4,805 bases of DNA, taken from IMG/VR virus record IMGVR_UViG_3300014539_000096, one strand, 5' to 3'. The notes below the pieces were generated by a model. It did not search any database and had not been told where the DNA came from. It was given only the letters and a program-made list of their open reading frames with translations. The translations under genes and the position numbers were made by a program. Each line of letters begins with the position of its first letter. Positions within the stretch are counted from its first letter, which is position 1. Of the stretch, positions 1 to 4,805 are shown one piece after another. The stretch comes from a virus. Lineage: Duplodnaviria > Heunggongvirae > Uroviricota > Caudoviricetes.

Positions 1-59
1 ACAGATCATTCACCAATGGTCCCCCTTCGTTTACATTAGCCACAATTGAATATGGGTAA

Positions 60-839
60 ATGACGATGAATTCATTCGAGCGAAGGAATAAGATCATCCA
101 ATTAGTGAATGAACAGGGAACCGTGCTTGTTCAGGATCTGGCGGGAGTATTTGCTGCCTCGGAAGCGACAATCCGTGCCGATTTGCGCTTTCTCGAACAA
201 AAAGGCGTGGTTACGCGCTTTCATGGCGGTGCGGCGAAAATAATGTCCGGTAATAGTGAAACCGAGACCCAGGAAGTCGGGTTTAAAGAGCGATTTCAGC
301 TCGCCAGCGCGCCGAAAAACAGAATAGCGCAGGCGGCAGTCAAAATGATCCATGAAGGGATGACCGTTATTCTCGACAGCGGAAGTACCACAATGCTTAT
401 CGCCGAAGGATTAATGACCGCCAAAAATATCACGGTGATTACCAACAGTCTCCCGGCAGCGTTTGCCCTTTCCGAAAATAAAGACATTACTCTGGTCGTC
501 TGTGGTGGCACGGTCCGCCATAAAACGCGCTCGATGCATGGTTCCATTGCCGAGCGTTCATTGCAGGATATTAATGCCGATTTAATGTTTGTCGGTGCTG
601 ATGGTATTGATGCGGTTAATGGTATTACGACCTTTAATGAAGGTTATTCGATTAGCGGTGCGATGGTCACCGCCGCTAATAAAGTGATTGCCGTTCTCGA
701 TTCATCGAAATTTAACCGTCGCGGTTTTAATCAGGTACTGCCAATCGAAAAAATTGACATTATTATTACCGATGATGCTGTATCAGAGGTGGATAAACTG
801 GCATTGCAGAAGACACGGGTAAAATTAATTACGGTGTAG
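60..839 (+). CDS. gatR: DeoR-family transcriptional repressor, galactitol-operon regulator GatR-like (intact, 259 aa)
   Basis: Full-length ORF. The N-terminal region fits a DeoR-type HTH domain and the C-terminal part (DSGSTT, VVCGG motifs) fits a DeoR sugar-phosphate-binding domain. The protein is recognised from memory as GatR. Convergent with yegS, as in the E. coli gat locus. An alternative start at ATG 66 (MNSFERR) is possible; neither start has a strong Shine-Dalgarno. Confidence 0.8.
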   Translation: MTMNSFERRNKIIQLVNEQGTVLVQDLAGVFAASEATIRADLRFLEQKGVVTRFHGGAAKIMSGNSETETQEVGFKERFQLASAPKNRIAQAAVKMIHEGMTVILDSGSTTMLIAEGLMTAKNITVITNSLPAAFALSENKDITLVVCGGTVRHKTRSMHGSIAERSLQDINADLMFVGADGIDAVNGITTFNEGYSISGAMVTAANKVIAVLDSSKFNRRGFNQVLPIEKIDIIITDDAVSEVDKLALQKTRVKLITV

Positions 840-850
840 TATTGTTCTGT

Positions 851-884
851 ATGCCGGATAAGGTATTTACACCGCATCCGGCAT
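851..884. repeat. REP-type imperfect palindrome in the convergent gatR/yegS gap
   Basis: ATGCCGGATAAGG...CCGCATCCGGCAT has perfect 9-bp outer arms (851-859 and 876-884) with a mismatched inner stem, the GCCGGATG/CATCCGGC signature typical of enterobacterial REP units. It lies between two convergent stop codons (839 and 921), so it may act as a bidirectional terminator or mRNA stabiliser. Confidence 0.6.
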
Positions 885-920
885 TTCGGATTCTCCCTGG
901 TTCAAGAGAGAATAGTTTGA

Positions 921-1820
921 TTAACGCAATAATGGACAATCTGGTGGTAATCGACAACGCAACGCCGCCGGAAGTATTTCAATATGAAAGTTTTGTCCGC
1001 TCAACGGTTCGCCATCAAGATTAAAAGTGATTTCGTGTGGGGCTTGTATATCAAACCACGACGAAGCGCCTTCGATAATATTCGGGTTATCTTCGTCAGA
1101 TTTTAAGGTTGATACGAGAGCCGGAAGAATTTCATCGCCGGTAAAAATGCGCAGTTGCAGCAAGCCATCGTTAATTAACGCGTTCGGACACAATTGCTGA
1201 CCGCCACCGGCCTGACGCCCGTTACCAATACCAATGACCAGGGCGTCACCTTGCCAGTGAAAGTTTTCACCGCGGATTTCACAACGGTCCGGTTGCAGAG
1301 TATCCATGCGCATTAAGCCATGAATGATGTAAGAGACGCCACCCAGCGCGGCTTTTAATTTTTCCGGCGTTTCTGTGGTAATACGCGTCCCAAATCCGCC
1401 TGTCGCCATATTAATAAAACAGGTTTGTTTGTTGACCTGCGCCATATCTATCGCAATGGCGTTACCGGCAATTGCCAGTTTCAGCGCCTTATCCAGTGCC
1501 TCAGGAATCCCTACACTGGTGGCAAAATCATTGGCGGTTCCTAATGGCAAAATTCCCAGCGCGGGTATTTCATCCCCCTCACACTGAATCAACGCCGTAG
1601 AAACTTCATTAATGGTGCCATCGCCACCACCGGCAATCACCGTTGCGACGCCCAACTTCCGGGCCTCCTCTACATATCGTGCGGCATCGCCTTTCTCCCA
1701 GGTGACCCGCACATGGATCGTCATTCCTTCCTCACGCAACAGCATAATTGCTTCGCGCAAGGGTAGATTGTCAGTACTTTTGCCATTAAGAATCAGTAAG
1801 CTGGCGGGAAATTCTGCCNN
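921..1820 (-). CDS. yegS: lipid kinase YegS (diacylglycerol-kinase catalytic-domain family)
   Basis: The track ORF 921-1760 begins at an internal Met. The frame stays open upstream (…[25 protein letters not shown]…) to codon 1818-1820, which reads NNG on this strand and is consistent with ATG. The GGDGT nucleotide-binding motif ([11 protein letters not shown]) is present. Length would be 299 aa if the start is at 1820. Confidence 0.85.
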
Positions 1821-1828
1821 NNNNNNNN
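1819..1828. other. run of 10 N (assembly gap or masked bases)
   Basis: Literal nnnnnnnnnn in the sequence. It overlaps the predicted yegS start codon and its ribosome-binding site. Confidence 1.
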
Positions 1829-2234
1829 TGATCGTATGTGCCTTTATGATTGGTCTGTAGATAGTGTAGAGCAGAAAACAAAAGGTGGAGTCAGAACAGG
1901 ATGAAAGTCGGAGGATAAAAAGTCAGTTCAAGTATGGAGGATTCAGTGGTTACCACCAGGAGCTTGCAATGGGGACAGCGAATATTAACGGTAACCACCG
2001 ATAAATTTCAAAAAAGAGCATATACCTAATATTCAACTAAACAGTGGCATCTTCAATATAATATATTAAAGCCCCCATGGAGTTACCCTGAAGGGCCTCA
2101 ATGTCCGTAATTCCTACTTATGTAGGAAATGTTGTACAGAACATTTATTATAATCCTATTCAATTATAATAATCATGCCGTTATTATATTTAAACACTAG
2201 AGAGTGTCGTTGGTATTTAATGGGGGAAGGTGAG
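1829..2234. promoter_or_regulatory. divergent yegS/yegR intergenic control region (AT-rich, several palindromes, -10-like hexamers)
   Basis: About 400 bp between two divergent start codons. TATAAT hexamers at 2149-2154 and 2165-2170; palindromes TTCCTAC-N4-GTAGGAA (2111-2128) and AAATGTT-N6-AACATTT (2127-2146); 11-bp palindrome GTGGTTACCAC (1947-1957). No transcription start sites can be assigned by eye. Confidence 0.35.
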
Positions 2235-2552
2235 ATGAAAAAGATAGCTGCTATATCATTAATTAGTATTTTTCTTATATCTGGTTGTGCTGTGCATAAT
2301 GATGAAACAAGTATCGGTAAATTTGGTCTTGCATATAAAAGTAATATTCAGCGTAAACTCGATAACCAATACTACACCGAAGCCGAAGCTTCTTTAGCCA
2401 GGGGTAGAATATCTGGTGCAGAAAATATAGTAAAAAATGATGCAGCCCATTTCTGTGTTACTCAGGGCAAAAAAATGCAGATAGTTGACCTGAAGACAGA
2501 AGGTGCAGGATTACATGGCGTCGCTCGTCTGACATTCAAATGTGGAGAGTGA
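2235..2552 (+). CDS. yegR: small predicted lipoprotein of unknown function (105 aa), YegR-like
   Basis: Start chosen at ATG 2235 (MKKIAAISLISIFLISGC...), preceded by GGGGGAAGG. The N-terminus is a signal peptide with a lipobox (ISG-C) and Ala at +2, suggesting Lol sorting to the outer membrane. Two further Cys residues are present. The 20-codon 5' extension in the track (from 2175) lacks a ribosome-binding site. The symbol is assigned from memory of the K-12 gene order next to yegS. Confidence 0.7.
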   Translation: MKKIAAISLISIFLISGCAVHNDETSIGKFGLAYKSNIQRKLDNQYYTEAEASLARGRISGAENIVKNDAAHFCVTQGKKMQIVDLKTEGAGLHGVARLTFKCGE

Positions 2553-2614
2553 GAATATTTTTTGGTAAGCATCAAACATGCGCGTTCTGGTTGTGCTTAG
2601 CCGGAACCTGTGCG

Positions 2615-2647
2615 AGCACGATGCCGTTACGTGAAAGGCATCGTGCT
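2615..2647. repeat. perfect 11-bp inverted repeat (stem-loop) downstream of yegR
   Basis: AGCACGATGCC (2615-2625), an 11-nt loop, then GGCATCGTGCT (2637-2647). No U-run follows on either strand, so it is not a canonical intrinsic terminator. Confidence 0.6.
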
Positions 2648-2710
2648 ATGAAGGGAGATTCTATCGATGTGGTCAATGGAAGACGGTGACCAGGGATAGG
2701 GCTTATGCAT

Positions 2711-2737
2711 AAAAAATAAGCCCGTGTAAGGGAGATT
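2711..2737. other. P2-type att core sequence (attL of the prophage)
   Basis: AAAAAATAAGCCCGTGTAAGGGAGATT matches my recollection of the 27-bp P2 attP/attB core. It sits 79 bp beyond the int stop codon, at the point where gene content changes from host to phage. Confidence 0.75.
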
Positions 2738-2816
2738 TAGGGTGTCACCAGTAGGGGCTTTCAACGGTACAATGCGGGTTTGAGCGGCATAAATTACCAC
2801 TGAAAGCCCTTAAACG

Positions 2817-3830
2817 TTACTCTACTGTGGACACTGTGTGGACACACTCGACCTCAGTACCACCTCTTAGCGGATTAAGAGAAATGGCGTCCTGAAGGTA
2901 CTCTGGCGCAAAATGAGCGTAAACCATAGTTTGCTCAATCCGCGTGTGACCTAGTATCCGTTGTAGCGTGATAATACTTCCTCCATTAATCATGAAATGA
3001 GTGGCAAAGCTGTGCCTTAGTGCATGTGTAGCTTGCCCCATTGGCAAATCCGGTTTTATTGCTTTCATTGTTCGTCTGAAGCGAGGGTAATCAGCATCAG
3101 GGAATAAAAAACCTCGTTTGTTATCCGCGATCATTTTGGCAACAGCCTCTGAGATCGGGACGGTGCGTGGTTTGTTTGTTTTCGTTTTAACAAACGTGAC
3201 GCGGTTATGGATGATATTTTCTGCTTTCAAACGAGCTGCTTCTCCCCAACGTGCTCCAGTACTCAGGCAAAGAATCGCAATCTTTTTGTTGTCGCCGTCA
3301 AGAGCAGCAAGCAGTAAGGCAATTTCTTCCTGCGTGAGATAGCCTGTGTCTGGTTTTTCCTCCTTAAGCCTTTTTGTCCCTCTGATAGGGTGCTCACCAA
3401 AGAATAACTCCGCTTCAATCAGGGCTGTAAACATGCCGCTAATACATGTTAAATCACGATTGATACTCGAAGGTTTAATACCCTGACTTCTTCGGGTAGC
3501 GCAGTACTGGCTGATAAGCGATTTCGTAATTTGAAATGCGCATGGGTCATTCGTTATTTTTGTGAAGATTTCAATTTTTCCAAGATTAGATTTCCCATGC
3601 TCTTCGTGTTTACCCTTTAAATCCCACCAGATCTGTGTCAGCTCCGACAGACGTCGCTTGTCTGTTGGTTTTGATAGCCATTCTTTATTGTGGTGGTTGT
3701 ACAACGTGTATTTCGCGAAAGCGACAGCTTCGCTTTTCTTATCAAACTTCCTACGGATGCGTTTTCCATTACGTCCAGTAGGGCGGATGTCCACTTCATA
3801 TCGACCATCATCGAGTTTTTTGATTGCCAT
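2817..3830 (-). CDS. int: phage P2-type tyrosine integrase (337 aa)
   Basis: Full-length ORF with GGAGGG 7 nt upstream of the ATG. C-terminal catalytic signature of tyrosine recombinases (ARWGEA... HALRHSFATH... LGHTRIEQTMVYAH). The sequence is recognised as P2 Int. Confidence 0.95.
   Translation of the reverse strand: MAIKKLDDGRYEVDIRPTGRNGKRIRRKFDKKSEAVAFAKYTLYNHHNKEWLSKPTDKRRLSELTQIWWDLKGKHEEHGKSNLGKIEIFTKITNDPCAFQITKSLISQYCATRRSQGIKPSSINRDLTCISGMFTALIEAELFFGEHPIRGTKRLKEEKPDTGYLTQEEIALLLAALDGDNKKIAILCLSTGARWGEAARLKAENIIHNRVTFVKTKTNKPRTVPISEAVAKMIADNKRGFLFPDADYPRFRRTMKAIKPDLPMGQATHALRHSFATHFMINGGSIITLQRILGHTRIEQTMVYAHFAPEYLQDAISLNPLRGGTEVECVHTVSTVE
2826..2844. promoter_or_regulatory. tandem direct repeat TGTGGACA-N3-TGTGGACA, candidate Int arm-type binding sites
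   Basis: Exact octamer at 2826-2833 and 2837-2844 with 11-bp periodicity, inside the last codons of int and about 90 bp from the att core. From memory, P2 Int arm sites are direct repeats of this type. Confidence 0.5.
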
Positions 3831-3884
3831 CAGAAAACCCTCCGAGTGGTGTGTTTTTTTGCGACTACTAATCGCTTTTTTCGT

Positions 3885-3905
3885 GGTGGCTGAAATTTAG
3901 CCACC
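3885..3905. repeat. perfect 7-bp inverted repeat in the C-int intergenic spacer
   Basis: GGTGGCT (3885-3891), loop GAAATTT, then AGCCACC (3899-3905). On the C-int transcript the hairpin is followed by an A-run rather than a U-run, so it is not a typical terminator. It may be a processing or regulatory structure. Confidence 0.4.
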
Positions 3906-3945
3906 AATAGTAGGCACTTGTGATGAATATATTCACGATGAATTG

Positions 3946-4245
3946 TTAACCAGTCTTTTGACCGGAGTGGGGCGACGTTGTTTCGTTTTGCCCAAAGTGT
4001 GCGAGAGCGGGCGCAATTTGCCCGGACTCAGGAGCGATCTGATTGGTCATGAACCATAAAGTGTATTTGGTGAATTGTGGGGTCTGCAGGATGTTCATCA
4101 TGACATCTGTTGGAGGTGTTGAACGACCACTTTCATAGTAACTCAGCGTGCCATACGGAACCCCTGTTAAATCAGCAAGTTGTTGTCTGCTCAAATACTC
4201 TGATTTTCGCATTAAGACTATCTTCTCGCTTATCGTGTTTGACAT
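3946..4245 (-). CDS. C: P2-type immunity repressor C (99 aa)
   Basis: Full-length ORF recognised as the P2 C repressor. It is transcribed leftward upstream of int, and its start codon overlaps the Pe -35 hexamer. Confidence 0.9.
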   Translation of the reverse strand: MSNTISEKIVLMRKSEYLSRQQLADLTGVPYGTLSYYESGRSTPPTDVMMNILQTPQFTKYTLWFMTNQIAPESGQIAPALAHFGQNETTSPHSGQKTG

Positions 4246-4267
4246 GGTGTTTAGATCTCAATAGTAT
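4239..4267 (+). promoter_or_regulatory. candidate early promoter Pe (TTGACA, 17-bp spacer, TAGTAT)
   Basis: Consensus -35 TTGACA at 4239-4244, a 17-bp spacer, and -10 TAGTAT at 4262-4267, oriented toward cox. The -10 lies between the two operator repeats. Confidence 0.6.
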
Positions 4268-4280
4268 TTAGTTTAGATGT
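4249..4280. promoter_or_regulatory. C-repressor operator: two direct-repeat half-sites spaced 22 bp
   Basis: GTTTAGATCT (4249-4258) and GTTTAGATGT (4271-4280) match at 9 of 10 positions and their starts are 22 bp apart, flanking the Pe -10. This agrees with the published P2 operator arrangement as I recall it. A third partial copy, TGTTTAG, is at 4285-4291. Confidence 0.65.
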
Positions 4281-4316
4281 AGATTGTTTAGTGCTTGGAT
4301 GTGGGCACTAAAAGGC

Positions 4317-4322
4317 ATTATA
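4317..4322 (-). promoter_or_regulatory. candidate Pc -10 hexamer (TATAAT on the minus strand)
   Basis: A perfect TATAAT on the minus strand, facing Pe so that the two transcripts would overlap by a few tens of bp. No good -35 is found at 16-18 bp spacing. Confidence 0.4.
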
Positions 4323-4422
4323 AGACATTAAACGCAATTCATGAGGGCTATCCGTCAGCCACGCGTTGTGTTTCCTGCCAGTCAGTCTTTGAAGCAAAAA
4401 ACAAGCATTACCGGAGAATGGC

Positions 4423-4698
4423 ATGAGTATTCGTATCGAAATTGGCGAACGTTATGTCGTTACCAGTGACAGCTTTCAGTTTATTCTCCACGAGAAAAAG
4501 AGAGCGGAAAGCGGTAAAAACGCCGGTCAGGAATGGCTGTCGGTGGTTGGTTATTACCCGAAATTAAGCCAGCTCGTTTCCGGCCTGATGCATCACGATA
4601 TTCTGACCGGAAGCGCAAAGTCTTTTGCTGATTTAAACGCGCAGGTTGAGCAACTCAGCAAGCGTTGTTCAGAGGCTTTTGGCTCATATGGCCGTTAA
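4423..4698 (+). CDS. cox: P2-type Cox protein (excision directionality factor and Pc repressor, 91 aa)
   Basis: Full-length ORF recognised as P2 Cox, with GGAGA 5 nt upstream of the ATG. It is the first gene of the rightward early operon. Confidence 0.9.
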   Translation: MSIRIEIGERYVVTSDSFQFILHEKKRAESGKNAGQEWLSVVGYYPKLSQLVSGLMHHDILTGSAKSFADLNAQVEQLSKRCSEAFGSYGR

Positions 4699-4740
4699 AG
4701 CCTCCGGGCGTTTTGTCCCTCCGTCAGCATTTGCCGCAGG

Positions 4741-4763
4741 CACCGGTAAGGCGTTTACCGGTG
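4741..4763. repeat. perfect 9-bp inverted repeat downstream of cox
   Basis: CACCGGTAA (4741-4749), loop GGCGT, then TTACCGGTG (4755-4763). No clear U-run follows. Confidence 0.5.
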
Positions 4764-4766
4764 CTT

Positions 4767-4805
4767 ATGCATGGAACGCGCCACGCGAGGCTGTCGGGCG
4801 CGAAA
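4767..4805 (+). CDS. possible 5' end of the next early-operon ORF (truncated by window edge)
   Basis: ATG at 4767 opens a frame (MHGTRHARLSGAK...) that runs to the window end. An in-frame GTG at 4761 and an out-of-frame ATG at 4771 are alternatives. The ribosome-binding site is weak and the protein is not recognised. Confidence 0.25.
   Translation, partial: MHGTRHARLSGAK

What the first reader, a model, noticed from the sequence alone, without database searches (positions are those of the whole stretch)
2826..2844. Tandem TGTGGACA octamers inside the int 3' coding end
Two exact octamers spaced by one helical turn overlap the last int codons (…ECVHTVSTVE). Regulatory protein sites embedded in coding sequence constrain both the protein C-terminus and the DNA site. 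These are most plausibly Int arm-type sites for the intasome.
Basis: partly seen in the sequence, partly recalled or inferred. Interest (0 to 1): 0.35.

Follow-up and report, generated by a model that had tools for sequence, protein, structure and literature searches.

The report
Phage P2 integrase arm-binding sites

Summary
TGTGGACA occurs at 2826-2833 and 2837-2844, 11 bp apart, inside the last codons of a minus-strand integrase gene (2817-3830).

The window is the left junction (attL, B-O-P') of a P2-like prophage at the E. coli locI site: gatR, yegS, yegR, then the 27-bp P2 core (2711-2737), int and the C repressor.

The GenBank record of phage P2 (AF063097) annotates an Int protein-binding site, "P' arm", at 24470..24496. 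That maps to window 2825-2851 and contains both octamers. Nilsson et al. 2011 (PMC3448106) give tgTGGaCa as the consensus arm site of P2-type integrases.

An intact, near-identical prophage at the same locus carries TGTGGTCA and TGTGGACG, 11 bp apart and in the same orientation, at its far junction, as does the P2 P arm. This prophage's own far end is outside the window.

Every diverged P2-type phage examined has such a pair, seven of eight beside the int 3' end. Most place it after the stop codon. P2 Int simply reads about 10 codons further through the sites.

Verdict: interpretation supported, already known, low interest.

Side observations: this prophage lacks cox through orf82, and the bacterial arm carries a relic of a P arm.

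The parts
2826..2833 (+). Core-proximal TGTGGACA octamer of the P' arm (Int arm-type site)
   Evidence: Exact match. Lies inside the P2 'Int, P' arm' protein_bind feature mapped from AF063097. Invariant in 80 of 80 close relatives.
2837..2844 (+). Core-distal TGTGGACA octamer of the P' arm (Int arm-type site), 11 bp from the first
   Evidence: Exact match. Same P2 feature. Invariant in 80 of 80 close relatives.
2825..2851 (.). Equivalent of the annotated P2 Int P' arm binding region (AF063097 24470..24496)
   Evidence: Coordinate mapping through the alignment. 25 of 27 bases are identical to P2, and both differences are outside the octamers.
2754..2827 (.). Equivalent of the annotated P2 Cox-binding region (AF063097 24399..24472), abutting the P' arm sites
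   Evidence: 74 of 74 bases identical to P2.
2711..2737 (.). 27-bp P2 att core AAAAAATAAGCCCGTGTAAGGGAGATT (crossover region; Int core-type sites)
   Evidence: Exact match to the P2 attP core and to the published locI core. Unoccupied E. coli sites match the window only up to 2737. In the empty site this sequence is the 3' end of the sRNA gene cyaR.
2817..3830 (-). P2-type tyrosine integrase gene int (337 aa)
   Evidence: About 99% identical to P2 Int. Pfam Int_N covers residues 57-156 and Phage_integrase residues 164-308. PDB 5C6K is P2 Int residues 46-337.
2664..2702 (+). Relic of a P2-type P arm in the bacterial B arm; TGTGGTCA at 2668-2675 is identical to the first P-arm octamer of P2
   Evidence: Alignment with P2 attP and attR shows TCGATGTGGTCAATG and GTGACCAG conserved, and 16 bp of the IHF-site region missing. 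Also present in an unoccupied site and in K-12.
3946..4245 (-). Immunity repressor C gene. Its operators GTTTAGAT lie at 4249-4256 and 4271-4278 and differ from the octamer motif.
   Evidence: P2 annotation mapped onto the window; sequence read directly; Pfam HTH_3.
4346..4355 (.). Deletion junction: the Pe/Pc control region is joined to the 3' end of orf82, removing cox, orf78, B, orf80, orf81 and most of orf82
   Evidence: blastn against the intact prophage L004: window 1-4350 aligns to L004 138-4487 and window 4346-4805 aligns to L004 6183-6643. The downstream ORF 4423-4698 is DUF5405, not Cox.

Best explanation
The two octamers are the P' arm-type binding sites of the P2 integrase, seen here in the attL junction (B-O-P') of a P2-like prophage at the E. 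coli locI site.

P2 Int is a heterobivalent tyrosine recombinase. Its small N-terminal domain, roughly residues 1-45, recognises tgTGGaCa arm sites. Its core-binding and catalytic domains bind the 27-bp core 88 bp away.

Two arm sites on the same face of the helix (11-bp spacing) recruit two Int protomers. These bridge arm and core DNA to build the recombinogenic complex. IHF bends the P arm for integration. Cox fills the region between the core and the P' sites to direct excision.

The sites lie inside the int reading frame only because, in the P2 lineage, int runs about 10 codons past the point where homologues stop. The peptide HTVSTV is dictated by the DNA sites.

Shown here: sequence identity with the annotated P2 site, the matching pair in the other arm, and conservation of the pair across P2-type phages. 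Inferred from P2 and lambda literature: actual Int binding and the bridging mechanism.
For: 1. The P2 GenBank record annotates protein_bind 'Int, P' arm' at 24470..24496, which is window 2825-2851. It also annotates 'Int, P arm', IHF, core and Cox sites in the expected order. The window is 99.3% identical to P2 over 2710-4350.
2. [quoted passage not shown]
3. The other arm carries the same motif. P2's P arm has TGTGGTCA and TGTGGACG 11 bp apart. The same pair is found at attR of an intact prophage at the same locus that is 99.8% identical over window 2560-4350. These are the only two tandem pairs in 41 kb, and 1 of 1000 shuffles reaches two.
4. All eight diverged P2-type phages examined (50-79% Int identity) have a tandem pair at 11-bp spacing. 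In seven it lies beside the int 3' end; in YpM_476B the only pair in the locus fetched is about 590 bp from the stop codon. Four of these phages (P24B2, fiAA91-ss, YpM_46, ENT4) also show a second pair within one mismatch of the motif on the far side. In SEN4 and phiT5282H the far-side repeats were read by eye.
5. SEN4 and phiT5282H carry TGTAGACA in the P' arm and TGTAGTCA/TGTAGACG on the P side. Their Int N-domain has W where P2 has R16 (YEVDVWP versus YEVDIRP). The 186-type phage PsP3 has GCCGCCA-type repeats instead.
6. In 80 close relatives both octamers are invariant. The five variable positions in the last 13 codons all fall outside the octamers, and at least four of them change the amino acid.
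7. The two copies are read in different frames, so the repeat is selected as DNA, not as peptide.
8. The Int here carries the P2-type N-terminal residues Y11, D14 and R16, spaced as the discriminators of PMC3448106.
Against: - No binding experiment can be done here. The binding evidence is the depositors' annotation of P2 and the literature behind it, which I could not read directly: Yu & Haggard-Ljungquist 1993 is not in the held library.
- The far end of this particular prophage lies outside the window, and its source could not be found. The 'other arm' test was therefore done on P2 and on a near-identical prophage.
- This prophage lacks cox, so the sites may no longer be used for excision in this host.
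- The bare repeat statistic within 4.8 kb is weak.
Confidence: 0.94

Rival explanations
1. The sites are correctly identified as P2 Int arm sites but are idle relics here. The prophage has lost cox and the replication gene B, so it is locked in the chromosome and the P' arm sites no longer take part in any reaction unless a helper phage supplies Cox.
For: The window joins the Pe/Pc region directly to the 3' end of orf82, about 1.7 kb shorter than the intact prophage L004. There is GGCT microhomology at the junction. ORF 4423-4698 is DUF5405, not Cox. Cox is required for P2 excision (the cox feature note in AF063097; PMC3936717).
Against: int, the core, the Cox-binding region and the arm sites are all intact and essentially identical to P2, so any decay is very recent. 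The junction was found in no public collection, so it could be strain-specific or an assembly or window artefact. This reading concerns current use, not identity.
Confidence: 0.3
2. The octamers are a chance repeat, or a by-product of the amino-acid sequence of the Int tail, with no DNA-level function.
For: Some exact 8-mer pair at 10-12 bp spacing appears in 21% of shuffled windows, and a 9-mer pair in 5%.
Against: - The copies are in different reading frames.
- The encoded tail is missing from most homologues, while the DNA pair is kept in all eight P2-type phages examined, mostly outside the CDS.
- The same motif pair recurs in the other arm.
- The sequence matches a published consensus and an annotated binding site.
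Confidence: 0.02
3. The repeats bind a different regulator (Cox or the C repressor), or act at the RNA level in the 3' end of the int transcript.
For: The annotated Cox-binding region ends at window 2827 and so touches the first octamer. Cox and Int bind attP cooperatively (PMC3936717).
Against: - The C operators are GTTTAGAT repeats 22 bp apart at 4249-4256 and 4271-4278, a different motif.
- The P2 record assigns 24470..24496 to Int, not Cox.
- Direct repeats cannot form a hairpin, and the terminator scan found nothing on either strand at 2800-2860.
- The P arm, which has no annotated Cox site, carries the same motif.
Confidence: 0.03

Closest known systems
Bacteriophage P2 attP P' arm Int binding site (GenBank AF063097, protein_bind 24470..24496; work of Yu and Haggard-Ljungquist)
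   Same: Same element. Both octamers, their 3-bp spacer, their 88-bp distance from the 27-bp core, the adjoining Cox-binding region and the overlap with the int 3' end are all identical.
   Different: Two substitutions just outside the octamers (2846, 2851) change the Int tail from AES to VEC. Here the site is in attL of an integrated prophage that lacks cox, rather than in attP.
Arm sites of other P2-type phages (consensus tgTGGaCa; PMC3448106)
   Same: Two direct repeats 11 bp apart in every phage examined, next to the int 3' end in seven of eight, with a second pair on the other side of the core where it could be seen.
   Different: In most of them (Klebsiella ST16-OXA48phi5.4, P24B2, fiAA91-ss, SEN4, phiT5282H, ENT4) the pair lies 10-35 bp downstream of the int stop codon. 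Only the P2 and WPhi-like lineages read through it. SEN4-type phages use TGTAGACA.
Phage lambda Int arm-type sites (P1, P2, P'1-P'3)
   Same: Works alike. A heterobivalent tyrosine integrase bridges arm-type sites, through its N-terminal domain, to core-type sites, with IHF and an excisionase setting direction. This rests on established knowledge and on the description in the mv4 preprint.
   Different: Unrelated site sequence, and two sites per arm instead of 2+3. The excision factor is Cox rather than Xis. The lambda arm sites are not inside int.
Phage 186 / PsP3-type arm sites (consensus tgccGCCActt)
   Same: Same architecture and same position beside the int 3' end.
   Different: Different motif and a different Int N-domain type. 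The window does not carry it.

Membership tests
P2-type Int arm-binding site (P' arm of attP/attL) | Sequence matches the consensus tgTGGaCa | tested here: met
   Two exact TGTGGACA copies at 2826 and 2837. Consensus taken from PMC3448106.
P2-type Int arm-binding site (P' arm of attP/attL) | At least two copies in direct orientation about one helical turn apart | tested here: met
   Same strand, 11 bp start to start. The same spacing is seen in every P2-type relative examined.
P2-type Int arm-binding site (P' arm of attP/attL) | Lies in an arm flanking the att core, on the int side | tested here: met
   Exact 27-bp core at 2711-2737. The octamers start 88 bp beyond it, at the int 3' end. Homology to unoccupied chromosomes ends at 2737.
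P2-type Int arm-binding site (P' arm of attP/attL) | A matching pair of repeats in the other arm (P arm, at attR of the prophage) | tested here: met
   TGTGGTCA and TGTGGACG, 11 bp apart, in the P2 P arm and at attR of the intact prophage L004 at the same locus. Not tested on this prophage's own far end, which is outside the window; its source was not found.
P2-type Int arm-binding site (P' arm of attP/attL) | Cognate heterobivalent integrase with a P2-type N-terminal arm-binding domain encoded alongside | tested here: met
   Int is about 99% identical to P2 Int. Its N-terminus MAIKKLDDGRYEVDIRP is identical to P2 and carries the Y/D/R discriminators. The Pfam core-binding and catalytic domains start only at residue 57.
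P2-type Int arm-binding site (P' arm of attP/attL) | Physical protection or shift by Int protein | not testable with these tools
   Relies on the protein_bind annotation of AF063097 and the literature behind it. The primary papers are not in the held library.
186-type Int arm-binding site | Direct repeats matching tgccGCCActt | tested here: not met
   The motif is seen in PsP3 but not at the window's int 3' end.
P2 C-repressor operator | GTTTAGAT direct repeats 22 bp apart, overlapping the Pe promoter | tested here: not met
   Those repeats sit at 4249-4256 and 4271-4278. The octamers differ in sequence, spacing and place.

The most novel reading that the evidence does not exclude
Two readings, neither described as far as I could find, are not excluded.

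(a) The roughly 10-residue C-terminal tail of P2-lineage Int arose when a stop codon was lost. The tail is translated from Int's own P' arm sites. The Klebsiella homologue has TAA exactly where P2 has GAG. The tail may since have acquired a role in controlling Int activity, as C-terminal tails do in lambda Int. If so, the arm-site sequence and the integrase tail would be locked together.

(b) The P-arm relic in the chromosomal B arm retains an intact TGTGGTCA 35 bp from the core. It could give Int an extra arm-type foothold at locI and contribute to P2's strong preference for this site, or alter attL behaviour.
Probability: 0.08. Interest if true: 0.35.

Novelty: already known. Interest (0 to 1): 0.07.

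Why it matters
It matters little beyond correct annotation. These octamers are the documented P' arm sites of the P2 integrase, and the window is a standard attL junction of a P2-like prophage at locI. About 15% of complete E. coli genomes (808 of 5426) have a P2-type int at this locus.

The useful outcomes are three:
- One clarification: the overlap with int is a lineage-specific read-through, not a conserved dual constraint.
- Several minor side observations: a cox-less deletion derivative, a P-arm relic in the bacterial arm, and arm-site/N-domain co-variation in SEN4-type phages.

Tried and rejected
1. **Locating the source of the window.** I searched the deletion-junction 30-mer to read this prophage's own far end. 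There was no match in genome contigs, viral contigs or metagenome contigs, none in the loci already fetched, and no complete RefSeq E. coli genome covers 80% or more of window 2560-4805. The far-end test was therefore done on a near-identical intact prophage.

2. **A first choice of genome that failed.** The first complete genome chosen (ETEC4090) had an IS1-truncated int and no prophage, so it was dropped.

3. **An uninformative scan.** The search for related loci with the Int protein returned only relatives at 99% identity or more. These were useful for population variation but not for divergence. Diverged relatives were obtained by tblastn against phage records instead.

4. **Literature searches that failed.** A full-text search for the octamer returned only unrelated primer hits. 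The primary Cox paper (PMC206961) is not held, and one search was rejected for a term that was too short.

5. **A possible third arm-like site.** AGTGGACA on the minus strand at 3788-3795 encodes E-V-D of the Int N-domain, and an octamer within one mismatch of the motif recurs at this position in six of the ten loci scanned. SEN4 has GTA there, matching its TGTAGACA arms, but its sister phiT5282H has GTG. The co-variation is therefore inconsistent, and protein-coding conservation explains it.

6. **Other readings.** Cox box, C operator and terminator readings of the octamers were rejected.

Full report
**1. Observation**

The + strand reads ...TACTCTAC TGTGGACA CTG TGTGGACA CACTCGACC... TGTGGACA lies at 2826-2833 and 2837-2844, and these are the only exact copies in the window. 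The identity extends to TGTGGACAC.

Both copies lie in the last codons of the minus-strand ORF 2817-3830 (337 aa), which ends ...GGTEVECVHTVSTVE*. The 11-bp period puts the two copies in different reading frames. The V-H-T / V-S-T likeness in the peptide therefore follows from the DNA repeat, not the reverse.

Taken alone the repeat is not very improbable. Of 500 dinucleotide shuffles of the window, 21% held some exact 8-mer pair at 10-12 bp spacing and 5% a 9-mer pair.

**2. What the window is**

- ORFs and similarity searches identify gatR (60-839, +), yegS (921 to about 1821, -) and yegR (2235-2552, +). The start of yegS is hidden by the N run at 1819-1828.
- Phage P2 homology follows: window 2710-4350 is 99.3% identical to P2, AF063097.
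- The 27-bp P2 core AAAAAATAAGCCCGTGTAAGGGAGATT is at 2711-2737. It equals the published locI/attP core (PMC3931495).
- Unoccupied E. coli chromosomes match the window up to exactly 2737 and no further. In such an empty site the core is the 3' end of the sRNA gene cyaR (Rfam RF00112, 100.7 bits).
- The window is therefore attL (B-O-P') of a P2-like prophage at locI, with int (2817-3830, -) and the repressor gene C (3946-4245, -).
- A P2-type int sits at this locus in 808 of 5426 complete E. coli genomes.

**3. Identity of the octamers**

The P2 GenBank record carries these features, in order:

| Feature | P2 record coordinates |
|---|---|
| Int, P arm | 24293..24320 |
| IHF | 24324..24357 |
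| Int, attP core | 24356..24383 |
| Cox | 24399..24472 |
| int CDS | 24462..25475 |
| Int, P' arm | 24470..24496 |

With the offset of 21645 given by the alignment, the P' arm feature is window 2825-2851 and holds both octamers. The sequence is CTGTGGACACTGTGTGGACACACTCGA, against CTGTGGACACTGTGTGGACACTCTCGG in P2. The two differences are outside the octamers.

The Cox region maps to window 2754-2827 and is 74 of 74 identical to P2.

Nilsson et al. [quoted passage not shown] They give the consensus tgTGGaCa, recognised by the Int N-terminal domain, and contrast it with tgccGCCActt for 186-type phages (PMC3448106). PMC3931495 repeats the two-arms, two-direct-repeats description.

**4.

- The P arm of P2 has TGTGGTCA and TGTGGACG 11 bp apart, on the same strand as the P' pair.
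- An intact prophage at the same locus (strain ARS-C301, locus L004) is 99.8% identical over window 2560-4350. It has the exact pair at attL and TGTGGTCA/TGTGGACG at attR, 59 and 48 bp from the second core copy.
- These are the only two tandem pairs (at most 1 mismatch each, spacing 10-12 bp) in 41 kb. Only 1 of 1000 shuffles gives two.
- This prophage's own far end lies outside the window, and its source was not found.

**5. Comparative evidence**

*Close relatives.* Among 80 close relatives from IMG/VR both octamers are invariant. The five variable positions in the last 13 codons (2836, 2846, 2850, 2851, 2853) all fall outside them, and at least four change the amino acid. This is only weak statistical support, about 0.06 by hypergeometric count on my own arithmetic.

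*Diverged P2-type phages (50-79% Int identity).* All eight have a tandem pair at 11-bp spacing, and in seven it lies beside the int 3' end.

| Phage | Pair beside the int 3' end | Far-side (P) pair |
|---|---|---|
| Klebsiella ST16-OXA48phi5.4 | TGTGGACA x2 | not seen in the locus fetched |
| P24B2, fiAA91-ss | TGTGGACA x2 | TGTGGACG/TGTGGACA |
| ENT4 | TGTGGACG/TGTGGACA | TGTGGACG/TGTGGACA |
| YpM_46 (WPhi-like) | TATGGACG/TATGGACA | TGTGGTCA/TGTGGACG |
| SEN4, phiT5282H | TGTAGACA x2 | TGTAGTCA/TGTAGACG (read by eye) |
| YpM_476B | none | not identified; the single TGTGGACA x2 pair lies about 590 bp from the stop |

- In SEN4 and phiT5282H the same G-to-A change is thus seen on both sides. 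Their Int N-domain has W where P2 has R16 (YEVDVWP versus YEVDIRP). This is a one-lineage co-variation consistent with N-domain recognition.
- The 186-type phage PsP3 has GCCGCCA-type repeats instead.

**6. The overlap with int**

Homologous integrases end 3-5 residues after the conserved LNPL(R/K/G)GG. P2-lineage Int continues for 13 residues.

The Klebsiella phage DNA is colinear with the window from the octamers to the ACCACCTCT that encodes the conserved R-G-G. There are 14 nt between the second octamer and ACCACCTCT in both. Its TAA stop sits where the window has GAG, at 2847-2849.

The arm sites are therefore at a conserved place, and the position of the stop codon differs. In P2, and independently in WPhi-like phages, int reads through the sites.

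The Pfam catalytic-domain match ends at residue 308. The tail residues are included in the crystallised P2 Int construct 46-337 (PDB 5C6K). I have no information on whether they are ordered in that structure.

**7. Mechanism**

This section is inferred from established P2 and lambda knowledge; it is not shown here.

- The Int N-terminal domain (about residues 1-45) binds the arm octamers.
- The core-binding domain (Pfam Int_N, residues 57-156) and the catalytic domain (164-308) bind the core.
- Protomers bridge arm and core. IHF bends the P arm during integration.
- Cox binds cooperatively with Int between the core and the P' sites and directs excision at attL (PMC3936717).

**8. Rivals rejected**

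- C operators are GTTTAGAT repeats at 4249-4256 and 4271-4278.
- The annotated Cox region only touches the first octamer. The P arm, which has no Cox annotation, carries the same motif.
- There is no terminator-like structure at the site.
- Chance or coding by-product is contradicted by sections 4-6.

**9. Side findings**

*(a) Deletion.* Relative to intact prophages the window lacks about 1.7 kb. Window 4350 is 10 bp before the cox start. It is joined to the 3' end of orf82, with GGCT microhomology at the junction. cox, orf78, B, orf80, orf81 and most of orf82 are missing.

ORF 4423-4698 is DUF5405 (orf83-like), not Cox, and the window ends in the start of gene A. The junction occurs in no collection searched.

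If real, the prophage cannot excise or replicate on its own, and the arm sites are currently idle.

*(b) P-arm relic.* The bacterial B arm (2664-2702) reads TCGATGTGGTCAATGGAAGACGGTGACCAGGGATAGGGC. P2's P arm reads TCGATGTGGTCAATGTGTGGACGTGACCAGAAATAAATC.

The first octamer is intact and the second is degenerate. About 16 bp of the IHF-site region is missing.

The relic is present in an unoccupied site and in K-12. An exact-pattern scan of species-representative genomes found it only in E. coli and Shigella flexneri records. locI therefore looks like the scar of an older P2-like attR.

*(c) K-12.* At this locus K-12 has the known P2 remnant, a D fragment plus ogrK.

**10. Verdict**

The feature is already known and annotated for phage P2, and interest is low.

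Noticed in passing
window 4346-4355 (junction), affecting 4246-4805: The prophage lacks about 1.7 kb present in intact relatives. The Pe/Pc control region is fused to the 3' end of orf82, so cox, orf78, B, orf80, orf81 and most of orf82 are deleted, with GGCT microhomology at the junction. ORF 4423-4698 is a DUF5405 protein, not Cox. The junction was found in no public collection searched, so it is strain-specific or an artefact.
   Followed up: yes
window 2664-2702: The 'bacterial' B arm downstream of yegR contains a relic of a P2-type P arm: TCGATGTGGTCAATG...GTGACCAG, with the first arm octamer TGTGGTCA intact at 2668-2675 and the IHF-site region missing. It is also present in an unoccupied E. 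coli site and in K-12. An exact-pattern scan found it only in E. coli and Shigella flexneri records. locI looks like the scar of an older P2-like attR.
   Followed up: partly
window 2711-2737; L094 1686-1771 (-): The 27-bp P2 core is the 3' end of the sRNA gene cyaR (ryeE) in the unoccupied site (Rfam RF00112, 100.7 bits). P2 integration duplicates it, so attL keeps only an orphan copy of the cyaR 3' end downstream of int.
   Followed up: partly
L088 (SEN4) and L089 (phiT5282H), about 14-25 bp after the int stop codon and in the far-side (P) arm: These phages carry TGTAGACA-type repeats on both sides of the core instead of TGTGGACA. Their Int N-domain has W where P2 has R16 (YEVDVWP versus YEVDIRP). 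This is a possible arm-site/N-domain specificity co-variation.
   Followed up: partly
window 3788-3795 (- strand AGTGGACA): An arm-like octamer (1 mismatch) lies in the codons for E-V-D of the Int N-terminal domain. An octamer within one mismatch of the motif recurs at this position in six of the ten loci scanned. SEN4 has the matching GTA variant but phiT5282H does not, so protein-coding conservation probably explains it.
   Followed up: partly
window 2817-2849 versus L092 1171-1194: P2-lineage int reads 10 codons past the point where the 79%-identical Klebsiella phage integrase stops (TAA there, GAG at window 2847-2849). The DNA is otherwise colinear, so the overlap of int with its own arm sites comes from a shifted stop codon.
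   Followed up: yes
window 1819-1828: A run of 10 N masks the yegS start codon region. yegS otherwise reads through (AEFPAS... at 1801-1818 on the minus strand).
   Followed up: no
L003 (NZ_CP122620.1) 38963-40243: In strain ETEC4090 the int at this locus is truncated by an IS1 and the rest of the prophage is gone. gat genes are rearranged next to it. This is another decay state of the same site.
   Followed up: no
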